Part shown: piece after piece, positions 641 to 29,045 of the stretch
How positions within the stretch are numbered: the first letter of the stretch is position 1
Layout of the letters: every line of letters begins with the position of its first letter
Virus record (IMG/VR): IMGVR_UViG_2778261464_000005
DNA length: 29,045 nt
Direction: 5' to 3' (one strand)
Origin: a virus
Taxonomy: Duplodnaviria; Heunggongvirae; Uroviricota; Caudoviricetes
The notes under the pieces: model-generated
Database searches by the model: none
What the model was told of the DNA's origin: nothing
The model's input: the letters and a program-made list of their open reading frames with translations, nothing else
Program-made: the position numbers and the translations under genes

Positions 641-1830
641 AGCTCAGACCTGATCTGACAGTTACCGGTTATTTATACAGGTATCTGTCAGATTACATCT
701 GGCTTAAATTTTTCTCGGCCCAGATGCGCTTTCCATCAAGTAACGTTTCCATTGGCGTCCGCCCATTGCACATTTTTCCCTGATGGGTTCGCTCATTATT
801 ATAGTGAGCCAGCCATTCATCAAGATCCGACTGTAATGTATCAAGATCGCCGTACAGTTTTTTACGGAACGTTACCTGATAAAATTCGTTCAGGATTGTT
901 TTATGGAACCGCTCGCAGATGCCGTTGGTCTGCGGGGACATCGCCTTTGTTTTCGTGTGTTCTACATCGTTTATTGCCAGATAAAGCTGATAATCATGCT
1001 GCTCTACTTTGCCACAGTACTCCGTGCCTCTGTCGGTCAGTATTCTCAGTATCGGCAGGCCCTGAGACGCATAAAACGGCAGTACACGATCATTCAGTAA
1101 GTCAGCCGCGGTAATCGGTGTTTTGGTGACGTAAAGCTTACAGTGAGCCACTTTCGAGTACGTATCAACGAACGTCTGCTGATAAATACGCCCGGCACCT
1201 TTCAGGTTGCCTACATAGAACGTGTCCTGCGAACCCAGATATCCCGGATGAGCCGTTTCGATTTCGCCACAGGCCTCGTCATCACTGGCTTTACGCTCCA
1301 GTGCTGCGATCTGGCTGTCAGTTAACTCAATGCCATCACGGGCTACTTTTTCTTCCAGTGCTTTCGGACGTTTTTTGAAATTCTCAAGGTTATGGCGTAA
1401 CCAGACAGAATGGACACCACTGCCGGAGATAAAAACGCCCTGTTTACGCAGCTCGTTGCTGCGTCCGGTGCTGACTGTGTGCCGGGAAAGCGACGGCGTA
1501 ATCAACAACAGCCTGTTCAGTTGCCTCATCGGTACGGTTCTTAAGGTTAGGAGCGCGGCGACTACGATTAATCAGCGCATCCACACCACCTTCATCGACC
1601 AGTTCGCGGTAACGATAAAACGTATCACGCGAAACGCCCATGATTTTACAGGCTTTTGATACGTTGCTGAGTTCTTCAGCCAGATTGAGCAAACCGGTTT
1701 TGTGTTTGATAACGGGATTGGTAGTATGAAGCATGAGAGTTACCTCGTGTTTTGTATAAGGATTCGACACCCATATCAAAACCGGTAACTCTCAACCTTT
1801 CAAGGCTCAGTGTCAGATCAAGTCGCGACT
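641..1830 (-). mobile_element. IS481-family (YagA-like) insertion sequence, about 1.2 kb, between the left-edge ORF and the 3' end of int
   Basis: Encloses the HTH + rve/DDE transposase ORFs. Ends share TGATCTGACA (about 651-660; reverse complement at about 1811-1820) and GTTACCGGTT (about 661-670; reverse complement at about 1781-1790), but the right end has about 20 extra bp between the two blocks, so the terminal inverted repeats are asymmetric. Boundaries approximate. Confidence 0.55.
693..1779 (-). pseudogene. IS481-family transposase (HTH + rve integrase core, YagA-like), split by a frameshift into two overlapping ORFs
   Basis: ORF 1444..1779 (111 aa) has the N-terminal HTH (SKACKIMGVSRDTFYRYRELVDEGG) and ends ...AFPAHSQHRT; ORF 693..1529 (278 aa) has the DDE/rve core (TDRGTEYCG ... 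SPQTNGICERFHKT). Together about 380 aa, the size of one IS481-type transposase. IS481-family transposases are normally a single ORF, so the split reads as a disrupting frameshift rather than a programmed one. Confidence 0.7.
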
Positions 1831-1845
1831 AATACATGTAAATAT

Positions 1846-2976
1846 TCATATTGTTAAAGTTACCCAATTTTTTCCGCGGAGATCGTTATAACGATCAGTT
1901 TGTTGCTGGGTTTTATGTCCCAGCAATTTCTGAGTATCTATTCCCTGTTCTTTGTATAGCCTTTCTGACAATGAACGTTGCTCATGAAAGGTTGCTGGGG
2001 TTCCTTCACCCCAATCAATTTCAGCCAGATCCCTTGCTTTGCTAAAATTCATAGTCAGAGTATTAGCTTTTACTTGTGCCCCACGTTCTGCCTGTGAAGT
2101 TGATCTGAAAAAATGTACTAAGTATGGACTATCTACATAGTCACGGCAGCGAGCTACAACATCGCGCAGGCTCCAGTTGATTACATTCAAACGAAGAGAA
2201 AGAGGAATGGCTATTTTGCTGCCGGTTTTTTCCTGTTCGATATGCAGATGATCATCCCAGATATCGCTGAATTTCATTTTGGATATATCTCCCAAACGTT
2301 GGCCAGTAACCAGCGCTAACAGCATGGCATTTCCCATGTAACGATGAGTGGAGTCTGCGATATCAAAAATTTTTTGCCATTCTTCCAGGCTGAGGCGTTG
2401 ACGGGTGATTTTCCTTCTGGGTTGCTTCGTCGCAAGAGCAGGGTTATACCCTGGTGGAACTTCGCCATAATGCTGTGCTTCCTTAAACACATCGATTAAT
2501 ACAGACCTTACGACTTGGGCCATTCTAGGCTGTCCAGCTGTAATATACTCATCAAGCAATTGTGCTATATCTCTGACATCAACGGATGAGATCAACTTCA
2601 TTCCTGCTCGTTCTCTGAGCAAGGATACTGGTTTGGCTTTTTGCTTATAGGTATTGAGTCTTATATCACCACTTTTGAGCCTATCATCCTGGATCGCTTG
2701 ATAGCGATCTAACCAGGTTGACGTTGTGATCGCTTTTCCTTTGCAGGTTGCGATCCTGTCACTGATAGCCAGAATCTGTCGGGTTCTTTGTTCAGCCAGG
2801 CGTGTATTGGCTTCAGTGGCAATAGCGATGGCTTCAGCTTCGTTAGTTCCCAACGCATGAAATTTCCCTGTTACTGGATGCTTATACCGCCAATAGACTT
2901 TATTTACCTTCCTACTATAAAGCGGATATAAGTTAGGTACTGAAACATTATTCTTACGCGGTCTGGCTGCCATCAC
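1846..2976 (-). CDS. int: Lambda-family tyrosine integrase
   Basis: 376 aa with N-terminal arm-binding-type region (NLYPLYSRKVNKVYWRYKHPVTGKFHALG) and C-terminal catalytic region (FHEQRSLSERLYKEQ...LLGHKTQQQTDRYNDLRGKNW) colinear with lambda Int as I recall it. Overlapping xis immediately upstream on the same strand. Confidence 0.9.
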   Translation of the reverse strand: MMAARPRKNNVSVPNLYPLYSRKVNKVYWRYKHPVTGKFHALGTNEAEAIAIATEANTRLAEQRTRQILAISDRIATCKGKAITTSTWLDRYQAIQDDRLKSGDIRLNTYKQKAKPVSLLRERAGMKLISSVDVRDIAQLLDEYITAGQPRMAQVVRSVLIDVFKEAQHYGEVPPGYNPALATKQPRRKITRQRLSLEEWQKIFDIADSTHRYMGNAMLLALVTGQRLGDISKMKFSDIWDDHLHIEQEKTGSKIAIPLSLRLNVINWSLRDVVARCRDYVDSPYLVHFFRSTSQAERGAQVKANTLTMNFSKARDLAEIDWGEGTPATFHEQRSLSERLYKEQGIDTQKLLGHKTQQQTDRYNDLRGKNWVTLTI

Positions 2977-3199
2977 TCAAGATCCGTTGCAAAAGTAATG
3001 AGTCATTTTTCTTGATTACTGGTGTTACCAACTCCCCAACTAACTCAGCGTCCTCACGCACTCGCCATAACCGACCTTGTTTCATGGCCGGTGGGCAAAA
3101 TAAATTCTGCTTAGCATAACGACGCAATGTGGACACACTTGGAGGATTACTTCTGTATTTTTCAGAGGCCCATTCTTCAAGAGTTAACATTTGAAGCAT
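2954..3199 (-). CDS. xis: Excisionase (lambda Xis-like)
   Basis: 81 aa, MLTLEEWASEKYRSNPPSVSTLRRYAKQNLFCPPAMKQGRLWRVRED resembles the lambda Xis winged-helix N-terminus. Overlaps the int start by 23 nt, the classic xis-int arrangement. True start may be the internal Met at about 3190. Confidence 0.75.
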   Translation of the reverse strand: MLQMLTLEEWASEKYRSNPPSVSTLRRYAKQNLFCPPAMKQGRLWRVREDAELVGELVTPVIKKNDSLLLQRILSDGSQTA

Positions 3200-3272
3200 A
3201 TGCGATCACCTTGTTACTTCACTAACTGTTCAGTCTCTGCATATCGACCCTGCAAGGTCGGTTAGTTTCTCC

Positions 3273-4539: not shown

Positions 4540-5214
4540 TTAGGCTTTGATTTTGTATCTTCTTGGTTTTCCTGAGAAAATCACAGTACCAATTATAGAG
4601 CAATTACCGTTGATCTTAATGTAAGGCTCAGGCCAGTTTGGGTTTAACGCTTTGAGATAACGCTGTGTCCCATCTTCTATCAACCTTTTGAAGGTGGTTT
4701 CACCTGTATCGTGCATCAATGCAATAACGTCGTCACCGTGGCAGGCAGGTACTTCAGGATCGACAAAAATCATGTCTCCCGGGCGGTACTCATCAATCAT
4801 TGAATCACCTATCACCCGCAAGATATAAGTCATTTCCCCACAGGGTACAGGGCAGGGATACGTTTCTGCTGTGCTCAAATCAACCTCAGAATATCCAACT
4901 TCTTTCCATGCTCCGGCCTGTACCCATGATATGACAGGGACTAATGTGATTTGTTTATTAGTGATTGAAACATCAGGTTTTTTTGTGATGTTCGTTGTCT
5001 GGTGTTCTTGATCGAGCCATCCGACAGGCAGGTCGAAACATTTTTCGATGTGTCGTGCCATGCTGTCACCGATATTTTTAGTAGCACCATCTCCCATAAA
5101 CCTGCTGGTTTGGGTTGGCTCGCGATCAATCATAGTGGCAAAGGAAGAATTCCCGCCAACACCATCTCTCAGTTTTCTGGCGTTAGACCGCCGGATGTCA
5201 TGGATTGTTTTCAT
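4540..5214 (-). CDS. cI: CI-type prophage repressor (N-terminal HTH + C-terminal S24 LexA-like autopeptidase)
   Basis: 224 aa. The C-terminal segment VIGDSMIDEYRPGDMIFVDPE...FKRLIEDG...LKALNPNWP matches the S24 peptidase motif of lambda CI/LexA. Divergent from the Cro-like gene across an operator-bearing intergenic region. Confidence 0.85.
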   Translation of the reverse strand: MKTIHDIRRSNARKLRDGVGGNSSFATMIDREPTQTSRFMGDGATKNIGDSMARHIEKCFDLPVGWLDQEHQTTNITKKPDVSITNKQITLVPVISWVQAGAWKEVGYSEVDLSTAETYPCPVPCGEMTYILRVIGDSMIDEYRPGDMIFVDPEVPACHGDDVIALMHDTGETTFKRLIEDGTQRYLKALNPNWPEPYIKINGNCSIIGTVIFSGKPRRYKIKA

Positions 5215-5229
5215 AACGAAATTAAAACC

Positions 5230-5250
5230 CTTGTACCGTTAAGGTACAAG
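5230..5250. promoter_or_regulatory. OR-like operator: perfect palindrome CTTGTACC-GTTAA-GGTACAAG in the cI/cro intergenic region
   Basis: 8-bp arms with a 5-bp spacer, read directly. A candidate PR follows (TTGAAG at ~5255, TAATAT at ~5277), and another GGTACA lies at ~5293. Confidence 0.55.
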
Positions 5251-5304
5251 TATCTTGAAGGTTCATTTTAATCATGTAATATGTATATTGGAGGTACATA
5301 TTGT

Positions 5305-5505
5305 ATGAAAGCGTATTGGGACTCTTTAACCAAAGAACAGCAGGGCGAGTTGGCCGGAAAAGTTGGCTCAACACCTGGCTACTTACGGCTGGTTTTCAAT
5401 GGCTATAAAAAAGCCAGTTTTGTGCTGGCTAAAAAACTTGAGCAATGCACGTCAGGTGCAATTACGAAATCTGACTTAAGACCGGATATCTATCCGAAAG
5501 ATTAG
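5305..5505 (+). CDS. cro: Cro/YdaS-like HTH regulator
   Basis: Start taken at the internal ATG 5305 (MKAYWDSLTKEQQGELAGKVGSTPGYLRLVFNGYKKAS...), preceded by GGAGG ~9 nt upstream. Small HTH protein divergent from cI. Confidence 0.7.
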   Translation: MKAYWDSLTKEQQGELAGKVGSTPGYLRLVFNGYKKASFVLAKKLEQCTSGAITKSDLRPDIYPKD

Positions 5506-5536: not shown

Positions 5537-6106
5537 ATGAGGCTAATCGTGGGTAAGCATCACTGGAAAATAGAAAAACAGCCTGAGTGGTACATGAAAG
5601 CTGTCAGAAAAACTATCGCGGCGTTGCCGGGTGGTTACGCTGAAGCCGCTGACTGGCTGGATGTAACAGAGAACGCTTTATTCAACCGCCTTCGTGCAGA
5701 TGGCGATCAGATTTTTCCGCTGGGATGGGCAATGGTTTTACAGCGTGCTGGTGGCACTCACTTCATTGCTGATGCTGTGGCGCAGTCTGCAAATGGCGTA
5801 TTTGTGTCTCTTCCTGACGTCGAGGATGTGGACAACGCCGATATTAACCAGCGTCTGCTGGAAGTCATTGAACAGATCGGCAGTTATTCAAAACAGATTC
5901 GTTCAGCAATCGAAGACGGTGTAGTGGAACCGCATGAGAAGACAGCAATTAACGACGAGCTGTATCTCTCAATTTCGAAGCTGCAGGAGCATGCAGCACT
6001 GGTCTACAAAATCTTTTGCATTTCAGAAAGTAATGACGCCCGCGAGTGTGCAGCTCCGGGCGTCGTGGCGTCGATTGCTTCTGGTTGTGGAGAAACTAAC
6101 GCATGA
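5537..6106 (+). CDS. CII-like / YdaT-family regulatory protein
   Basis: 189 aa directly after the Cro-like gene; size and position fit the Rac-type YdaS-YdaT pair. Start uncertain (ATG 5537, or GTG 5551 with a better SD). Confidence 0.55.
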
Positions 6107-10780: not shown

Positions 10781-10799
10781 GACGGCCATATTGGCCGTC
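10781..10799. terminator. Perfect hairpin (GACGGCCA-TAT-TGGCCGTC) between convergent Q and the minus-strand cassette; possible bidirectional terminator
   Basis: 8-bp perfect stem read directly; overlaps the stop codon of the 10798..11976 gene and lies 8 nt after the Q stop. No strong U-run on either side. Confidence 0.4.
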
Positions 10800-11976
10800 A
10801 GCTAAATAAATATGTAATAGCATAAGGCGTAAGTAAAAAGTAGAATCTAAATGTAAGATATAAGCCACATAAAACTATAATTCCTAATGAGGCAAAAACA
10901 ACTTTCTGAACAAGCAATCTTGTGGTTAAACTATCAAATGTATCCTTTATATCTTCGTAAATAGCCTTGAAGTTATATTCTGCTTGTTGTTTTTTATGAT
11001 TTAACTCATCATTTATTGCTGTTAAAGTTTGCCATTGATTAAATAGAACAAATAGAATCATAATAGTGAAGAACAATGCACCCAACACTACAGCTGTGTT
11101 TATTAATGCTTGACTATCCCAACCATTAGCCTGCTTCATTTGAGTCGCAACGATAATTGTTGCGACGGGGATACCTAATATCTGATTTTGTATGTCACTG
11201 AATACTTTATGTATTTTCCCCATCTCTTCTATTTTGGCTACTCGTAACTGATCCAGTATTTTCTCGTAAGAAAAACCAGAAACGAATACTTTGTATCCTT
11301 TTTGATAACTTTCATAAAGTTGTCCTAAATCCCTTAACATGAAGGAAAAAGAGGTTTCTTTAGTTTTAGATTCACATGATGATTTTATACTACTTGCTAA
11401 AATAGTAAGTTTTTGATCTTTATGCGTATCTTCTGCAAAGTTTGCGATCAAATTATGAATCAGATCTCCATTAACATTCATAAGATCATCGCTAGAATAA
11501 TTTACTGGAATTTTTAGTACGTTGGATTCGACGAATACCAATTCAAAATTTGTTTCATCTAAATAAGCAGAACAATCTTTGAATAAAGTAATTAAGCTCA
11601 AAACATCTCTGTACTTGGATATAATAGCAGGCGACTTTTTATCCCTGTTGTGATAATTAAGTTCGATTATAAAGAAGTTACTGGCTTCCTTTATCCTATT
11701 TTTAGGATTTTTTAAATACTCATTAAAAGAGAAATGTAGCTGCCCCAATCGTAATTTGGGGGGGGTTATATGTAAGGTTATAGTTTGGCCTAACTCAATG
11801 TTGCCAGATTCAAGGGTGATGCCAAAATCATGGGGATTCTCTGTGATATCGTTGATGATGTCACAGAGCTCCTCGTTTGAAAGAATGAGTGATGCTTCAG
11901 ATAGGGTACCTGCAAATGTAGCGGCCTTGTAAATAGTCACTAAGTCTTTGAAGGTTCTCTGATTGTTACTGCTCAT
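10798..11976 (-). CDS. Hypothetical protein with ~280-aa soluble N-terminal domain and two C-terminal transmembrane helices (candidate membrane effector)
   Basis: ATG 11976 preceded by AGGTGA; starts 7 nt after the upstream gene stop (operon). Hydrophobic helices ALINTAVVLGALFFTIMILFVLF and VVFASLGIIVLCGLYLTFRFYFLL. AT-rich, no recognisable enzymatic motif. Confidence 0.7.
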   Translation of the reverse strand: MSSNNQRTFKDLVTIYKAATFAGTLSEASLILSNEELCDIINDITENPHDFGITLESGNIELGQTITLHITPPKLRLGQLHFSFNEYLKNPKNRIKEASNFFIIELNYHNRDKKSPAIISKYRDVLSLITLFKDCSAYLDETNFELVFVESNVLKIPVNYSSDDLMNVNGDLIHNLIANFAEDTHKDQKLTILASSIKSSCESKTKETSFSFMLRDLGQLYESYQKGYKVFVSGFSYEKILDQLRVAKIEEMGKIHKVFSDIQNQILGIPVATIIVATQMKQANGWDSQALINTAVVLGALFFTIMILFVLFNQWQTLTAINDELNHKKQQAEYNFKAIYEDIKDTFDSLTTRLLVQKVVFASLGIIVLCGLYLTFRFYFLLTPYAITYLFS

Positions 11977-13000
11977 CCTCTTCACCTAATTCTGATAAAA
12001 TCTCTGATCTTAGCGTATCCGGAATCTCGGTAAGTATCAATTTATCGTTTTCTGAATCATAAAGAACGCTGCCATCATGCAAGGCCGCACGCTCGAATTT
12101 CAGAGACCAATGTTTGGACTTTCCTTTGAAACTAACAAGCCCACGTATAACGTTGCCATCAGGCACGAACCCATCAGAGAACTCCAGATCGTCATTGGTT
12201 AACTTTTCAACTAACAACTCAGGAGCAGTTGGCCATATCTCGTTTGCAAAAATTTGAGTGTCGAAAGTTTCACCAGAACGATTTAAATTTTTTAATTTTT
12301 CATGAGCCTTATTTAGGAACTCTTCACGTGCCTCTGGTTCAAAACCTCTTTCAGTAGCAAATTCTAAAAGTGCATTCCGTAATTTTGTTGTTTCTTGTTT
12401 GGCAATTAGAATATCGTTGCAACCTAAAAACTTTTTGAAATAACCTGCTACTGAATTTTGCCCCTTTAGAAAGCTAATATATCTCTCTTTGCCATTCTGG
12501 CGCCCAGTTAAGTCAATTCGTCCCGCTACTCGAAGTTTAGCAATGTCTAGATATTCACTTTCTTGAATTTCAAAATCGTGGACTGAAGAGCCAACTGCTG
12601 ATGTTAGGATTGCAACCATCAAATAATGATTTCCATTTACCTCATTATGGGCAATTATTACATAACCACCAGTAGACATTGATTCATCATCGGCTCTGGC
12701 TTTTAAATGATTGATCATTCGGATACTAGTATCATAAAAACTATGTGTTTTATTTACGAAATAATCATCAACGATATTACCCATAGGGTAACTATCGCGG
12801 TCATCTTCAAATTTCCCATATCCTTTACCTGCTCTCCCAGAGTACCTTTCAGTAAGTGCGTTAGAGAGGTCTTTTGATGCTTGCTGAACAGGTTTTTCTG
12901 AAGGACAAGGAATAATGGTGGCTAACCCCTGTTGTTCCTTGTTCATAATGTGAACAATAAACTTATGAGTGATATTAGTGGGGGTCGCTGATGCAGTCAT
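11966..13000 (-). CDS. Divergent NdpA/YejK-family (NA37) nucleoid-associated protein homologue
   Basis: 344 aa, about the size of YejK (~335 aa). Colinear blocks with E. coli YejK as I recall it: [20 protein letters not shown] vs [41 protein letters not shown] vs [40 protein letters not shown] vs [25 protein letters not shown]. AT-rich. Confidence 0.7.
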   Translation of the reverse strand: [344 protein letters not shown]

Positions 13001-25951: not shown

Positions 25952-26307
25952 TGGCCCGTATCGGGGGAACCTGTTATTTCAAAATTGACGGTCAGCAGCT
26001 ATCGCTGACCGGCGGCATTGAGGTGCCCATGAACAGGACGGTCAATGATGACATCATCGGCCTGGACGGTTCAGTGGACCGCAAGGAAACTCACCGTGCG
26101 CCTTATGTCAAAGGGACCTTCAAGGTGCCGAAGAATTTTCCGGTGAGCAAAATCACCTCGTCTGATGAGATGACCATCACTGCCGAGCTGGCGAACGGTC
26201 AGGTCTATGTACTGTCGTCTGCCTGGCTGCACGGCGAAGCGAACCATAATGCCGAAGAAGGCACGGTCGATCTTGAGTTCCACGGTGAAGAAGGGGATTA
26301 CCAGTAA
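25951..26307 (+). CDS. Tail tube protein
   Basis: 118 aa between the sheath and the tail assembly chaperone; start overlaps the sheath stop. Confidence 0.7.
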   Translation: MARIGGTCYFKIDGQQLSLTGGIEVPMNRTVNDDIIGLDGSVDRKETHRAPYVKGTFKVPKNFPVSKITSSDEMTITAELANGQVYVLSSAWLHGEANHNAEEGTVDLEFHGEEGDYQ

Positions 26308-26576
26308 TGAAAGAGCTTGAGTTAAAGAAACCGATTACCGCTCATGGCGAGACACTCTCCGTACTGGAGTTTGATGAGCCCACCGGGAAAGATGTCCGCG
26401 AGCTGGGGTATCCCTACCAGATGAATCAGGATGAGTCCGTCAGACTTCTGGCGCATGTGGTGTCGAAATACATTGTGCGGCTGGCGAAAGTGCCGCAAAG
26501 CTCTGTCGACCAGATGTCTCCGGCAGACCTGAATGCAGCGGCGTGGCTTGTGGCTGGTTTTTTCCTCCAGGCCTGA
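26307..26576 (+). CDS. Tail assembly chaperone (G-like, zero-frame product)
   Basis: 89 aa immediately upstream of the tape measure gene; ends ...WLVAGFFLQA and contains the slippery heptamer. Confidence 0.7.
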   Translation: MKELELKKPITAHGETLSVLEFDEPTGKDVRELGYPYQMNQDESVRLLAHVVSKYIVRLAKVPQSSVDQMSPADLNAAAWLVAGFFLQA

Positions 26577-26725
26577 CGGCTGAATACCTCACTGATCGCT
26601 TCTTTGACTGCGCCAGCTACTGGCGCATTAATCCCTTCGAATTGCTGAATATGCCGATCAGTGAAATTCCCTTGCTGGTCAGTCAGGCAAACAGGATAGA
26701 GCAGGAGAAACGCACACATGGCTGA
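26307..26725 (+). CDS. Tail assembly chaperone frameshift fusion product (GT-like)
   Basis: Zero frame 26307..26563 joined by -1 slippage to the frame of ORF 26543..26725; the conserved G/GT arrangement upstream of tape measure genes. Confidence 0.55.
26558..26564 (+). promoter_or_regulatory. Slippery heptamer T_TTT_TTC for programmed -1 ribosomal frameshift (G to GT fusion)
   Basis: In the zero frame the codons are GGT TTT TTC. A -1 slip continues into the frame of track ORF 26543..26725 (FFPPGLTAEYL...EKRTHG), which ends at 26725 overlapping the tape measure start. Confidence 0.6.
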
Positions 26726-28550
26726 ATTTGAGCTTAAGGCGTTGATCACCGGTGTCGACAGGCTTTCTCCCGCGCTGTCGAAAATGCAAAAGAAAATCCG
26801 GGGATTTAAACGCCAGGCGGAAGAAGCGTCACAGGGTGGGCTGGCGCTTGGTGGAGGACTGGCAGCGGGGCTGACGCTTTCCCTGAAATCTTATGCCGAT
26901 CAGGAAAACGCCGCTACCGGGCTGAAAGTCGCCATGATGGATGCGAACGGCGAGGTTGGAAAGAGCTTTCAGGACATCAATAAACTGGCTATTGGCCTGG
27001 GTAACCAGCTACCCGGTACAACGGCTGATTTCCAGAACATGATGCAGATGCTGGTGCGTCAGGGGATCCCGGCAGAAAACATTCTGGGTGGTGTGGGTAA
27101 AGCGACAGCTTATCTTGCGGTACAACTGAAAAAAACACCGGAAGCGGCTGCTGAGTTTGCTGCAAAGATGCAGGATGCTACCGGAACGGCGTCAGAAGAC
27201 ATGATGGGGCTGTTCGACACTATCCAGAAGGCGTTTTATCTGGGCGTTGACGATACCAACATGTTGTCCTTCTTCACTAAAACCAGTTCTGTTCTGAAGA
27301 TGGTGAACAAGGACGGTCTTCAGGCTGCACAGAGCCTTGCCCCCATCAGCGTCATGATGGATCAGATGGGGATGAACGGGGAGTCGGCAGGTAATGCCCT
27401 GCGAAAAGTTATCCAGTCCGGATTAAGTGTTAAGAAAATCAGGGACGTCAATAAAGTCATGGCCCGCCAGAAACTCGGGGTACAGCTCGATTTTACTGAC
27501 GGCAAAGGAAGTTTTGGCGGTCTTGATAACATGTTCAGGCAACTGGCAAAGTTGCGAAAACTGACCGACGTTAAGCGAACAGGCGTACTTAAGGCAATAT
27601 TTGGTGATGATGCCGAAACCCTTCAGGTGGTCAATGCCCTGATCGATAAAGGAAAGGATGGCTACGATCAGATCCAGCAGAAGATGAATAAACAGGCCAG
27701 CCTGAATAAACGTGTTCAGGCTCAGCTTGGTACGCTGTCCAACCTGTGGGAGGCAATGACGGGGACCGCAACTAACGGTCTTGCAGCTATTGGCGGAGCA
27801 TTTTCTGGTGACGCTAAAAATATCACGCAATGGCTGGGGGAGTTGGGGGAAAAATTCACGAAGTTTGCGGATGAAAATCCCCGGGTTATTCGCGGCGTCG
27901 TCGGGCTTGCTGCCGGTCTTGCGATTCTGAAACTGGGATTGATGGGCGTTGGCGGTGCCATCAGTATTGTCAGCAGGATCATGTCGATGACGCCGATTGG
28001 CATGATTGCGACGGCGATAGCCCTGGCTGCGGGATTAATTATCACTAACTGGGATGTTGTCGGACCTTATTTTAAGAAACTCTGGGAAACCATTGGTCCT
28101 TATTTTGAGGCTGGCTGGGAACTCCTTAAGAAAGTTTTTGCCTGGTCGCCGCTGGGGATGGTGATCAATAACTGGGGGCCGGTTGTTAAGTGGTTTCAGG
28201 ATATGTGGGACAAGCTGAAGCCAATTATTGAGTGGTTTACCGACAGTTCCGGTGACACGGTCGATGCCATTAACTCTGCGCAGTGGGGCGCGGGTGCTTA
28301 TGATGCTTATGGGACGGGAATACCGACGCGGGGATACACACCTTATCCGGCGGTGGATCCGGCTCAGTCAAACAACGCCTCCGATGCCACAGGCCCGAAT
28401 CCCTTCATGATTAACAAAGCTATCGCGCCAAAAGTTGATGGCGAGATCAAGGTTTCATTTATGAATATGCCACCAGGTATGCGGGTTACGGAAACACGTT
28501 CCAGTGGCATTGATATTAATCACGATGTTGGGTACACCAGATTTAGGTAA
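26718..28550 (+). CDS. Tail tape measure protein
   Basis: 610 aa, helix-rich with Gly/Ala-rich and hydrophobic segments (GLAAGLAILKLGLMGVGGAISIV), directly after the chaperone pair. Confidence 0.8.
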   Translation: MAEFELKALITGVDRLSPALSKMQKKIRGFKRQAEEASQGGLALGGGLAAGLTLSLKSYADQENAATGLKVAMMDANGEVGKSFQDINKLAIGLGNQLPGTTADFQNMMQMLVRQGIPAENILGGVGKATAYLAVQLKKTPEAAAEFAAKMQDATGTASEDMMGLFDTIQKAFYLGVDDTNMLSFFTKTSSVLKMVNKDGLQAAQSLAPISVMMDQMGMNGESAGNALRKVIQSGLSVKKIRDVNKVMARQKLGVQLDFTDGKGSFGGLDNMFRQLAKLRKLTDVKRTGVLKAIFGDDAETLQVVNALIDKGKDGYDQIQQKMNKQASLNKRVQAQLGTLSNLWEAMTGTATNGLAAIGGAFSGDAKNITQWLGELGEKFTKFADENPRVIRGVVGLAAGLAILKLGLMGVGGAISIVSRIMSMTPIGMIATAIALAAGLIITNWDVVGPYFKKLWETIGPYFEAGWELLKKVFAWSPLGMVINNWGPVVKWFQDMWDKLKPIIEWFTDSSGDTVDAINSAQWGAGAYDAYGTGIPTRGYTPYPAVDPAQSNNASDATGPNPFMINKAIAPKVDGEIKVSFMNMPPGMRVTETRSSGIDINHDVGYTRFR

Positions 28551-28557
28551 AGACGAA

Positions 28558-28579
28558 CAGGGAGGGCCGTCCCTCCCTG
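28558..28579. terminator. Perfect hairpin (CAGGGAGGG-CCGT-CCCTCCCTG) between the tape measure gene and the convergent moron; likely bidirectional terminator
   Basis: 9-bp perfect stem read directly; 8 nt after the tape measure stop and 4 nt after the minus-strand gene stop. Confidence 0.5.
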
Positions 28580-28582
28580 AAC

Positions 28583-29029
28583 TTACTGTGCGAACACGCA
28601 ATTTCGGCCTGATGGGGAGCCGACAATTCTGGACATTTTTTCGCAAATAACAGTTACTTGTTCTCCTTTTTTAAGAGCAGCAGCTGTTGATTTTTCAGAG
28701 TCTTGCATCTCCATTCTTGCTGGCATGAATTCATTTTCAGTTCTGAATTTAATAATTATAGAGTCAGTAAAGTCCTTATCAATGGATTGTACGATACCTC
28801 TAACGGCGATTAATTTACCTTTTAACTGTTCATCGGTAGCGACTTCATTTTCTTCATACTCTTTAAACAGCTGTCGAGCAGTAGTGTTGTAGATTTCTTT
28901 TTGCGGTGCCGCAGCTTCCGTATCGGATGAGTATGAAGAATTAGAGCCTTTATCGTTATTGCCTGCAAAATATCCAATAATCACCAACCCGATGAAAATA
29001 TATAAAATCCATTTTAATAATTTCTTCAT
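28583..29029 (-). CDS. Membrane-anchored/secreted hypothetical protein (AT-rich moron convergent with the tail genes)
   Basis: 148 aa with N-terminal signal/anchor (MKKLLKWILYIFIGLVIIGYFAG) and no lipobox Cys; AAGGTGA SD; low GC, on the opposite strand inside the tail cluster. Confidence 0.6.
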   Translation of the reverse strand: MKKLLKWILYIFIGLVIIGYFAGNNDKGSNSSYSSDTEAAAPQKEIYNTTARQLFKEYEENEVATDEQLKGKLIAVRGIVQSIDKDFTDSIIIKFRTENEFMPARMEMQDSEKSTAAALKKGEQVTVICEKMSRIVGSPSGRNCVFAQ

Positions 29030-29045
29030 GTTATCACCTTAATGC

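What the first reader, a model, noticed from the sequence alone, without database searches (positions are those of the whole stretch)
28558..29029. Convergent AT-rich membrane-anchored gene inserted inside the tail gene cluster
A minus-strand gene with an N-terminal signal/anchor and its own SD sits directly after the tape measure gene, separated by a perfect 9-bp hairpin. Opposite-strand cargo inside a structural operon is typical of lysogenic-conversion genes that act at the cell envelope, for example superinfection exclusion.
Basis: partly seen in the sequence, partly recalled or inferred. Interest (0 to 1): 0.4.

Follow-up and report, generated by a model that had tools for sequence, protein, structure and literature searches.

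The report
Prophage superinfection-exclusion-like membrane OB-fold gene
A small foreign gene sitting backwards just after the tape measure gene of an E. coli prophage encodes a membrane-anchored periplasmic protein related to Sie2009, a known phage DNA-entry blocker of dairy bacteria, so it is most likely an ordinary accessory gene that keeps rival phages out.

Summary
Window 28583-29029 (-) is a real 148-aa gene with a Shine-Dalgarno site. It has 37% G+C against 51% in the tape measure (TMP) gene. A perfect 9-bp hairpin (28558-28579) separates it from the convergent TMP gene.

The protein has a short positive N-terminus, one transmembrane helix, a disordered Ser/Thr-rich linker and an acidic OB-fold domain with two invariant cysteines. 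It belongs to Pfam PF12869 (2.9e-19) and to PHROG 8545 "superinfection exclusion Sie-like" (1.5e-49). The tested lactococcal injection blocker Sie2009 (phage Tuc2009) falls in both families. It aligns with this family at hhalign probability 97.5%, or 95.7% using the OB domain alone.

Family evidence places the OB domain in the periplasm: lipoprotein variants, zinc-ribbon-plus-TM variants, flanking charge and the cysteine pair.

The gene is optional cargo. In related E. coli prophages the same TMP-to-gene-N slot is empty in 531 genomes, holds this allele in 75, and holds unrelated genes in about 200.

Best reading (0.6): a lysogen-expressed moron that blocks phage DNA entry at the inner membrane. 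Function, expression and target are untested. Verdict: a new Gram-negative member of a known kind, of modest interest.

The parts
28583..29029 (-). Complete gene for a 148-aa Sie2009-like, membrane-anchored OB-fold protein (RefSeq WP_000734912.1, 'OB-fold protein'); stop codon at 28583-28585
   Evidence: ORF list; PF12869 2.9e-19; PHROG 8545 1.5e-49; RefSeq annotation; dN/dS 0.05-0.10
28961..29029 (-). Codons 1-23: positively charged N-terminus (MKKLLK) plus a single transmembrane signal-anchor helix
   Evidence: Kyte-Doolittle 2.16, N-flank charge +3; AF2 helix at residues 2-22; in the family, N-flank +2.5 against C-flank -0.3
28898..28960 (-). Codons 24-44: variable Ser/Thr/Asn-rich disordered linker
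   Evidence: pLDDT below 50 for residues 25-39; variable length and sequence in alignment A1
28586..28897 (-). Codons 45-148: helix-capped OB-fold domain, acidic (pI 5.2), with invariant C129 and C144; predicted periplasmic
29034..29040 (-). Shine-Dalgarno sequence AAGGTGA
   Evidence: Read directly from the sequence; GGTGATAACATG conserved in the second E. coli allele
28548..28579 (-). Intrinsic-terminator-like element for the minus-strand gene: 9-bp G+C-rich hairpin (28558-28579) followed on the minus strand by TTCGTCTTTA (28548-28557, overlapping the TMP stop codon)
   Evidence: Terminator scan flags it on the minus strand only; folding energies; GGGAGGG/CCCTCCC stem kept, with different loops, in two other alleles
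26718..28550 (+). Context: convergent tail tape measure protein gene (610 aa), the last tail gene before the cargo slot
   Evidence: PF10145 9.8e-27; PHROG tape measure families

Best explanation
The gene is a moron, meaning optional horizontally acquired cargo with its own expression signals. It lies in the slot between the tape measure gene and the Mu-N-like DNA circularization gene of a lambdoid, Mu-tailed E. coli prophage.

It encodes a bitopic inner-membrane protein. The N-terminus is cytoplasmic. One TM helix follows, then a flexible linker of about 20 residues, then an acidic OB-fold domain in the periplasm that is probably disulfide-bonded.

By homology with Sie2009 it most likely acts in the lysogen as a superinfection exclusion protein. 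Incoming phages would adsorb, but their DNA would not cross the inner membrane. The tethered OB domain would bind a component of the incoming tail tip or channel. The tape measure protein is the best guess for that component, by analogy with Ltp, HK97 gp15 and T4 Imm.

The opposite orientation and the one-directional terminator let the gene be transcribed from the repressed prophage without reading antisense into the tail genes. Late tail transcription can still pass through it.

What is shown: gene, fold, family membership, cargo status and terminator-like hairpin. What is inferred: topology, promoter, expression in lysogens, the exclusion phenotype and the target.
For: Family membership: PF12869 at 69.5 bits against a cut-off of 23.5; PHROG 8545 at 1.5e-49 over profile positions 14-176 of 177. 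Sie2009 (Tuc2009 orf2) hits the same PHROG (1.7e-79) and Pfam family (3.5e-11).

Direct comparison with Sie2009: hhalign of the family against Sie2009 gives probability 97.5%, E 8e-12, over 129 columns. The OB domain alone gives 95.7%, E 9.5e-9, while shuffled controls give E >= 0.055. Sie2009 and SieLC3 are membrane-associated and block DNA injection (PMC7693887, PMC4155818, PMC10883804).

Topology: 4 of 90 homologues carry lipoboxes in place of the TM helix, and 3 of 90 carry a zinc ribbon before it. Among further representatives, 36 of 142 have a zinc ribbon followed by a TM helix. The Cys pair is present in 87 of 90 homologues but absent from Gram-positive Sie2009. The N-flank is more positive than the C-flank in 75 of 82. 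The domain pI is 5.2. The C-terminus of the related TcdC OB domain was shown experimentally to be extracellular (10.1101/872283; PMC3575817).

Cargo status, by number of complete E. coli genomes: slot empty in 531, this allele in 75, a diverged allele in 7, and unrelated cargo in 174 and 24-42. G+C is 14 points below the flanks.

Context in relatives: immediately downstream of the repressor in L017 and in Burkholderia phage Carl1; opposite-strand within tail or baseplate genes in Buttiauxella and in a Klebsiella phage.

Expression signals: the terminator-like site is found on the minus strand only. A conserved TGCnATAA(T/A)TT block, read as an extended -10, lies upstream in three alleles.

TMP as a recurrent target of membrane exclusion proteins: PMC10883804, PMC3594210, 10.64898/2026.03.06.709160.
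Against: - No experiment exists for this protein or any proteobacterial member.
- Identity to Sie2009 is only about 23-26%, across the Gram-positive/Gram-negative divide, and the mechanism and target of Sie2009 itself are unknown.
- The family is very large (7744 clusters). It includes members with no phage context (Pantoea and Pectobacterium chromosomal loci) and TcdC, for which no exclusion role is known.
- The gene is not in the lysogeny module, where classic Sie2009-type genes sit.
- The proposed promoter lies outside the window, has no good -35, and was not picked up by the simple promoter scan.
- PADLOC has no match.
Confidence: 0.6

Rival explanations
1. It is an envelope-acting lysogenic-conversion protein whose benefit is not phage exclusion. 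The periplasmic OB domain might instead bind an oligosaccharide, peptidoglycan or a host envelope protein. Possible roles include protection against colicins or tailocins, stress tolerance, or a signalling or regulatory role like the one once proposed for TcdC.
For: The OB fold is a generic ligand-binding scaffold, and the closest solved structure, 3F1Z, has no known function. Homologues occur outside prophages. TcdC, a family relative, has no known exclusion activity (PMC3575817; 10.1101/872283). Other prophage cargo near a Serratia homologue includes an O-antigen-type acyltransferase.
Against: The only experimentally characterised member of the same PHROG and Pfam family is an injection blocker. 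Relatives are repeatedly placed in repressor operons of temperate phages. The other cargos occupying the same slot show that the slot is optional, but they say nothing about function.
Confidence: 0.22
2. It is an AbiP/PdpSau-like abortive-infection protein. In this model a membrane-anchored OB domain faces the cytoplasm, senses phage nucleic acid and stops replication or depolarises the membrane.
For: It shares the gross architecture of an N-terminal TM helix plus an OB-like domain with AbiP and PdpSau, both anti-phage proteins and one of them prophage-encoded (PMC10127798). Structural neighbours beyond 3F1Z are nucleic-acid-binding OB folds.
Against: Predicted topology is N-in/C-out, based on the lipoprotein and zinc-ribbon variants, flanking charge and the Cys pair. 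The domain is acidic (pI 5.2), whereas the PdpSau domain is described as cytoplasmic and positively charged (PMC10127798). There is no PADLOC hit. Sie2009 used as a tblastn query finds no lactococcal plasmid, though I could not confirm that an abiP plasmid is in that collection.
Confidence: 0.07
3. It is a component or assembly or injection factor of the prophage's own tail, i.e. a structural or housekeeping gene.
For: It lies inside the tail gene cluster, directly next to the TMP gene.
Against: It is on the opposite strand, has foreign G+C and carries its own terminator. At least 531 genomes carry the same tail cluster with an empty slot, and about 200 carry unrelated cargo there. Homologues sit in lysogeny modules and at non-phage loci. 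It matches no tail family.
Confidence: 0.03

Closest known systems
Sie2009 / SieLC3 (orf2 of Lactococcus phages Tuc2009, phiLC3, r1t; PHROG 8545)
   Same: Same PHROG and Pfam family and profile-level homology that includes the OB domain. Same architecture: basic N-terminus, one TM helix, Ser/Thr/Gly-rich linker, OB domain. Both are about 150-170 aa and carried by temperate phages.
   Different: About 23-26% identity. The host is Gram-negative, so the domain would sit in the periplasm. It has an invariant Cys pair that Sie2009 lacks. It lies in the tail cluster after the TMP gene of a contractile-tailed prophage, rather than between int and the repressor of a siphovirus. Its function is untested.
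3F1Z, 'putative nucleic acid-binding lipoprotein' of Klebsiella pneumoniae (a solved structure of a PF12869-type protein)
   Different: It has a lipid anchor rather than a TM helix, 16-19% identity, and no known function or phage context.
TcdC of Clostridioides difficile and its homologues in Lactobacillus/Leuconostoc phages
   Same: N-terminal membrane anchor plus a C-terminal OB domain that matches PF12869 by profile comparison (PMC3575817). The C-terminus was shown to be extracellular (10.1101/872283). The phage homologues lie between cI and int.
   Different: TcdC has an extra coiled-coil dimerisation region, sits in the toxin locus, and was proposed to be a toxin regulator. I did not compare its sequence directly here.
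HK97 gp15 (the original 'moron')
   Same: Optional cargo inside the tail operon, adjacent to the TMP gene, with its own expression signals. It is an inner-membrane protein that blocks DNA entry, and escape maps to the tail tube/TMP region (PMC3594210, PMC10883804).
   Different: Unrelated protein (YebO family), with no OB domain. It lies between the chaperone and TMP genes rather than after the TMP gene.
Ltp (Streptococcus phage TP-J34) and T4 Imm
   Same: Membrane-tethered exclusion proteins that act outside the cytoplasm and target the tape measure protein (PMC4155818 ref. 96; PMC10883804; 10.64898/2026.03.06.709160). T4 shows that this logic also applies to contractile tails.
   Different: Different folds and families. 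No Ltp (PF07553) or Imm match was found for this protein.
AbiP (Lactococcus) and PdpSau (S. aureus prophage)
   Same: TM anchor plus an OB-like domain; both are anti-phage (PMC10127798).
   Different: Their OB domain is cytoplasmic and basic, and their phenotype is abortive infection. Here the domain is predicted to be periplasmic and acidic.

Membership tests
Pfam PF12869 (tRNA_anti-like OB-fold) | Score above the curated gathering threshold | tested here: met
   69.5 bits against a cut-off of 23.5, residues 2-130; all 89 full homologues carry PF12869
Pfam PF12869 (tRNA_anti-like OB-fold) | Helix-capped five-stranded OB barrel like the solved member 3F1Z | tested here: met
Sie2009-type superinfection exclusion proteins (PHROG 8545) | Sequence membership in the same family as Sie2009 | tested here: met
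   PHROG 8545 at 1.5e-49 against 1.7e-79 for Sie2009; hhalign 97.5%; domain-only 95.7% with shuffle controls
Sie2009-type superinfection exclusion proteins (PHROG 8545) | Small protein with a hydrophobic N-terminal membrane anchor | tested here: met
   Prediction only: Kyte-Doolittle 2.16 over residues 4-22 and an AF2 helix at 2-22
Sie2009-type superinfection exclusion proteins (PHROG 8545) | Encoded in the lysogeny module (between integrase and repressor) of a temperate phage | tested here: not met
   Here it follows the TMP gene in the tail cluster. Relatives do follow the repressor. This is a positional habit rather than a mechanistic requirement.
Sie2009-type superinfection exclusion proteins (PHROG 8545) | Expressed from the repressed prophage | not testable with these tools
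   Only a conserved extended -10-like block upstream, outside the window, and an own terminator
Sie2009-type superinfection exclusion proteins (PHROG 8545) | Blocks phage DNA injection without affecting adsorption | not testable with these tools
   Needs plating-efficiency, adsorption and DNA-entry assays
Moron (Juhala/Hendrix sense) | Extra DNA present or absent between conserved genes of related phages | tested here: met
   Empty slot in IHE3034 and O157 C1-057 and in 531 genomes; occupied in 75
Moron (Juhala/Hendrix sense) | G+C content different from the neighbouring genes | tested here: met
   37.1% against 51.3%; composition profile
Moron (Juhala/Hendrix sense) | Own terminator | tested here: met
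   Hairpin plus T-rich tail on the minus strand only; stem conserved in other alleles. This is a prediction, not a transcript end.
Moron (Juhala/Hendrix sense) | Own promoter | tested here: inconclusive
   The consensus scan found none upstream. A conserved TGCnATAA(T/A)TT footprint in three alleles suggests an extended -10 about 60-65 nt upstream of the ATG, beyond the window end.
AbiP/PdpSau-type membrane-anchored OB abortive-infection proteins | Cytoplasmic, positively charged nucleic-acid-binding C-terminal domain | tested here: not met
   Predicted N-in/C-out topology; domain pI 5.2, net charge -2
Ltp-type lipoprotein exclusion proteins | Lipobox signal peptide and Ltp repeat domains (PF07553) | tested here: not met
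   No Cys in the N-terminal region and no PF07553 hit
HK97 gp15 / YebO family | Sequence similarity to gp15/YebO | tested here: not met
   No such family among the Pfam or PHROG hits

The most novel reading that the evidence does not exclude
This would be the first Gram-negative working member of the Sie2009 family, and the first carried by a contractile-tailed prophage. In this reading the PF12869 membrane-tethered OB domain is a bacteria-wide extracytoplasmic module that captures the incoming tape measure or tail-tip protein and blocks channel formation. The family has thousands of clusters and comes with TM, lipoprotein and zinc-ribbon anchors. Relatives such as C. difficile TcdC would then be domesticated exclusion proteins. 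The TMP-to-N junction of Mu-type tails would be a cargo hotspot comparable to the P2 and P4 hotspots.
Probability: 0.3. Interest if true: 0.55.

Novelty: new member of a known kind. Interest (0 to 1): 0.3.

Why it matters
If the protein excludes phages, it would give E. coli a tractable model for the Sie2009-type injection block. The target and mechanism of that block remain unknown after more than 20 years. It would also extend the block to Gram-negative envelopes and possibly to contractile-tailed phages.

About 1.5% of complete E. coli genomes (82 of 5426) carry an allele. That bears on phage-therapy host range and on prophage competition in STEC, APEC and commensal strains.

The link between Sie2009, this family and TcdC also suggests an alternative view of TcdC. 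For the window itself the finding is ordinary: a typical moron that phage-specific annotation (PHROGs) already labels correctly, while RefSeq calls it only 'OB-fold protein'.

Tried and rejected
- Megablast of the region against 50,697 phage records found no match. tblastn found only five distant phage homologues.
- A sequence search of the PDB gave only chance hits to coronavirus spike constructs, E >= 0.05.
- NCBIfam gave nothing above noise. PADLOC gave nothing.
- The afdb50 fold library was not available.
- Rfam on 28300-29045 gave only a sub-threshold MALAT1 chance hit, so there is no known RNA element.
- The sigma-70 consensus scan found no promoter upstream of the gene. Its one strong minus-strand hit (TTGATA-16-TATAAT, L001 12383-12356) lies inside the coding sequence, and I did not interpret it.
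- To test the AbiP rival, I ran Sie2009 by tblastn against plasmids and found no lactococcal plasmid. This is uninformative, because I could not confirm that an abiP plasmid is in the collection.
- The Bordetella phage hits fall on the strand opposite an annotated gene. I did not pursue them.
- Cleavable signal peptide or lipoprotein for this allele: rejected, because there is no lipobox and no small -3/-1 residues.
- Tail structural role: rejected, because most related prophages have an empty slot.
- Literature searches for PF12869, tRNA_anti-like, 'Sie-like' and OB-fold plus superinfection exclusion found no study of a proteobacterial member.

Full report
**What is there.** Window 28583-29029 (minus strand) is a 148-aa ORF with an ATG start and TAA stop. 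An AAGGTGA Shine-Dalgarno site precedes it at 29034-29040. The ORF converges on the 610-aa tape measure (TMP) gene at 26718-28550 (PF10145 and PHROG tape-measure families).

Between the two stop codons lies CAGGGAGGG-ccgt-CCCTCCCTG (28558-28579), with nine perfect pairs. It folds at -21 kcal/mol on the + strand and -23.4 on the - strand, z about -2.9 against shuffles.

The gene has 37.1% G+C (GC3 33.6%). The TMP gene has 51.3% (GC3 56.1%) and the structural region 53.5%. The window stops 16 nt upstream of the ATG, so the promoter and the downstream tail genes cannot be seen in it.

**Genomic setting.** The last 1146 bases of the window are 100% identical to E. coli S19-651 and three other strains. 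In S19-651 the gene (WP_000734912.1, 'OB-fold protein') lies between the TMP gene and a Mu-N-like DNA circularization gene. Baseplate and fibre genes follow. The rest of the window carries a lambda-type integrase, an S24 CI-like repressor, a CII-like gene and HK97-type head genes. This is a mosaic temperate prophage with a contractile, Mu-type tail.

**The gene is optional cargo.** About 919 of 5426 complete E. coli genomes carry a closely related TMP 3' end. The slot after the TMP gene is occupied as follows:

| Slot content | Genomes |
|---|---|
| Empty (60-bp spacer) | 531 |
| 176-aa plus-strand protein with hydrophobic N-terminus (phrog_5485, function unknown) | 174 |
| This OB-fold allele | 75 |
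| 125-aa soluble PH-domain protein | 24-42 |
| Second OB-fold allele (about 71% aa identity) | 7, two of them IS1-disrupted |

The alignment shows that the cassette replaces exactly the spacer between the TMP stop codon and the ribosome-binding site of gene N. A Buttiauxella prophage has a 73%-identical gene in the same slot and orientation. Between alleles dN/dS is 0.05-0.10 with synonymous sites saturated, so the protein is under strong purifying selection. These facts exclude both a chance ORF and a tail structural role.

**The protein.** It starts MKKLLK (+3 charge). A single hydrophobic helix follows (Kyte-Doolittle 2.16, residues 4-22). Next comes a variable Ser/Thr/Asn-rich linker, and then a 104-residue acidic domain (pI 5.2).

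The protein is a clear member of Pfam PF12869 (69.5 bits). It matches PHROG 8545 'superinfection exclusion Sie-like' at 1.5e-49. It has no NCBIfam, PADLOC or PDB-sequence match.

**Link to a characterised protein.** The PHROG label traces back to orf2 of Lactococcus phage Tuc2009, i.e. Sie2009. Identical copies occur in phiLC3, r1t, 50101 and 86501. Sie2009 itself hits PHROG 8545 (1.7e-79) and PF12869 (3.5e-11).

hhalign of my family alignment against Sie2009 gives probability 97.5% and E 8e-12 over 129 columns. With the anchor and linker removed it still gives 95.7% and E 9.5e-9, whereas five shuffled controls give E >= 0.055. The two proteins share the Y-x-x-N-x-x-A-x-D-x-x-x-K-G-K helix motif and the same architecture.

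Sie2009 and SieLC3 are small membrane-associated proteins that block DNA injection of heterologous phages. Their mechanism is still unknown (PMC7693887, PMC4155818, PMC10883804).

**Topology (inferred).** Several independent family-level features put the OB domain outside the cytoplasm:
- Four of 90 homologues replace the TM helix with a lipobox signal peptide, and 3F1Z is also a lipoprotein.
- Three of 90 homologues, and 36 of 142 further representatives, have an N-terminal CxxC...CxxC zinc ribbon followed by exactly one TM helix and then the OB domain.
- The N-flank averages +2.5 and the C-flank -0.3. The N-flank is the more positive in 75 of 82.
- Two cysteines (C129, C144) are invariant in proteobacterial members (87 of 90) but absent from Gram-positive Sie2009. 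That fits a periplasmic disulfide.
- The C-terminus of the PF12869-like OB domain of C. difficile TcdC has been shown experimentally to be extracellular (10.1101/872283; Pfam link in PMC3575817).

The acidic charge of the domain argues against non-specific nucleic-acid binding.

**Expression signals.** The terminator scan flags the hairpin only on the minus strand, where TTCGTCTTTA follows it. On the plus strand no T-run follows, so late tail transcription can plausibly read through to gene N. The GGGAGGG/CCCTCCC stem is kept, with different loops and flanks, in the second E. coli allele and in Buttiauxella.

Upstream, in otherwise diverged sequence, three alleles share TGCnATAA(T/A)TT. I read this as an extended -10 promoter element. 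It lies at L001 12690-12698, about 44-53 nt beyond the window end. This is a footprint, not a mapped promoter, and the consensus scan missed it.

**Context of relatives.**
- In Burkholderia phage Carl1 (P2-like) the homologue ends the operon repressor-hypothetical-homologue-terminator.
- In a metagenomic phage the zinc-ribbon variant lies 45 nt downstream of the S24 repressor on the same strand.
- In Klebsiella phage ST405-OXA48phi1.2 a zinc-ribbon variant sits backwards inside the baseplate genes.
- In Serratia the homologue is at a prophage edge.
- In Pantoea and Pectobacterium it is chromosomal with no phage genes nearby.

The family is large: 7744 clusters at E <= 1e-3.

**Mechanism and rivals.** The best-supported reading (0.6) is a lysogen-expressed, inner-membrane-tethered periplasmic OB domain that blocks DNA entry by superinfecting phages. 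The tape measure or tail-tip protein is the likeliest target. That guess rests on analogy only. TMP changes overcome Ltp. Tail tube/TMP swaps escape HK97 gp15. T4 Imm binds the T4 TMP (PMC10883804, PMC3594210, 10.64898/2026.03.06.709160).

The rivals are:
- An envelope function unrelated to phages (0.22). This stays open because the family is broad and functionally uncharacterised.
- An AbiP/PdpSau-like abortive-infection protein with a cytoplasmic OB domain (0.07). The topology and charge evidence argue against it (PMC10127798).
- A tail component (0.03). The empty slots argue against it.

**Novelty and verdict.** The gene is a textbook moron and a new, untested, Gram-negative member of a known exclusion family. 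PHROG-based annotation already labels it so, whereas RefSeq does not. I found no paper on a proteobacterial member. Interest is modest at 0.3. The more interesting extensions are a conserved extracytoplasmic OB module that blocks injection across bacteria, the TcdC connection, and the cargo hotspot after the TMP gene. All of these need experiments.

Noticed in passing
Slot just beyond window 28551-29045; loci L005 3152-3834, L021 3155-3647, L006/L007 3155-3214, L008 3110-3704: The junction between the TMP gene and the DNA circularization gene is a cargo hotspot in this E. coli prophage lineage. It is empty in 531 genomes. It holds a 176-aa plus-strand protein with a hydrophobic N-terminus (phrog_5485, unknown) in 174, this OB-fold allele in 75, a soluble 125-aa PH-domain protein in 24-42, and a diverged OB-fold allele in 7 (two IS1-disrupted).
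   Followed up: partly
L006/L007 about 3160-3205 (empty slot); L016 about 5885-5910: In empty-slot prophages a strong terminator-like hairpin with a T-run (GTCCCAC-tccg-GTGGGAT-TTTTT) sits between the TMP gene and gene N, on the tail-gene strand and in mid-operon. Buttiauxella has a similar hairpin flanked by A and T runs just upstream of gene N. Its role within a late operon is unexplained.
   Followed up: no
window 10798-11985 (-) and 11966-13000 (-): This is a second opposite-strand, two-gene insert among plus-strand early/late genes. It comprises a 344-aa NA37 (YejK-like) nucleoid-associated protein (PF04245, 8e-69) and an overlapping 395-aa protein of unknown function (phrog_5023). It is possibly another accessory or defence cargo.
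   Followed up: partly
window 693-1529 (-) and 1846-2976 (-): An rve-family transposase (IS element) lies next to the lambda-type integrase, near the presumed prophage end.
   Followed up: no
window 26307-26576 (+) and 26543-26725 (+): The tail assembly chaperone gene has an overlapping downstream ORF in another frame just before the TMP gene. This is the usual arrangement for a programmed translational frameshift (G/GT-like).
   Followed up: no
L001 4667-5872 (E. coli S19-651): RefSeq marks the major capsid gene of the otherwise identical prophage in S19-651 as a pseudogene with an internal stop. Gene coordinates upstream of the tail region do not map one-to-one onto the window, so the window probably comes from a different carrier strain.
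   Followed up: no
L004 5001-5351 (Bordetella phage vB_BaM-IFTN4): The tblastn match to the OB-fold protein lies on the strand opposite the annotated hypothetical gene (4850-5326). The OB-fold homologue near the repressor may therefore be mis-annotated in these phages.
   Followed up: no
BFVD A0A8S5U313; plasmid NZ_MN657061.1 1949-2131: A 352-aa viral protein named 'Host cell surface-exposed lipoprotein' (the Ltp family name) contains this OB fold. A Psychrobacter 'Ltp family lipoprotein' weakly matches the N-terminal anchor and linker. These may be fusions of the two exclusion modules.
   Followed up: no
P0091, P0097, P0110, P0143, P0164, P0182: Some family representatives carry 2-5 tandem copies of the OB domain in proteins of 350-580 aa.
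   Followed up: no
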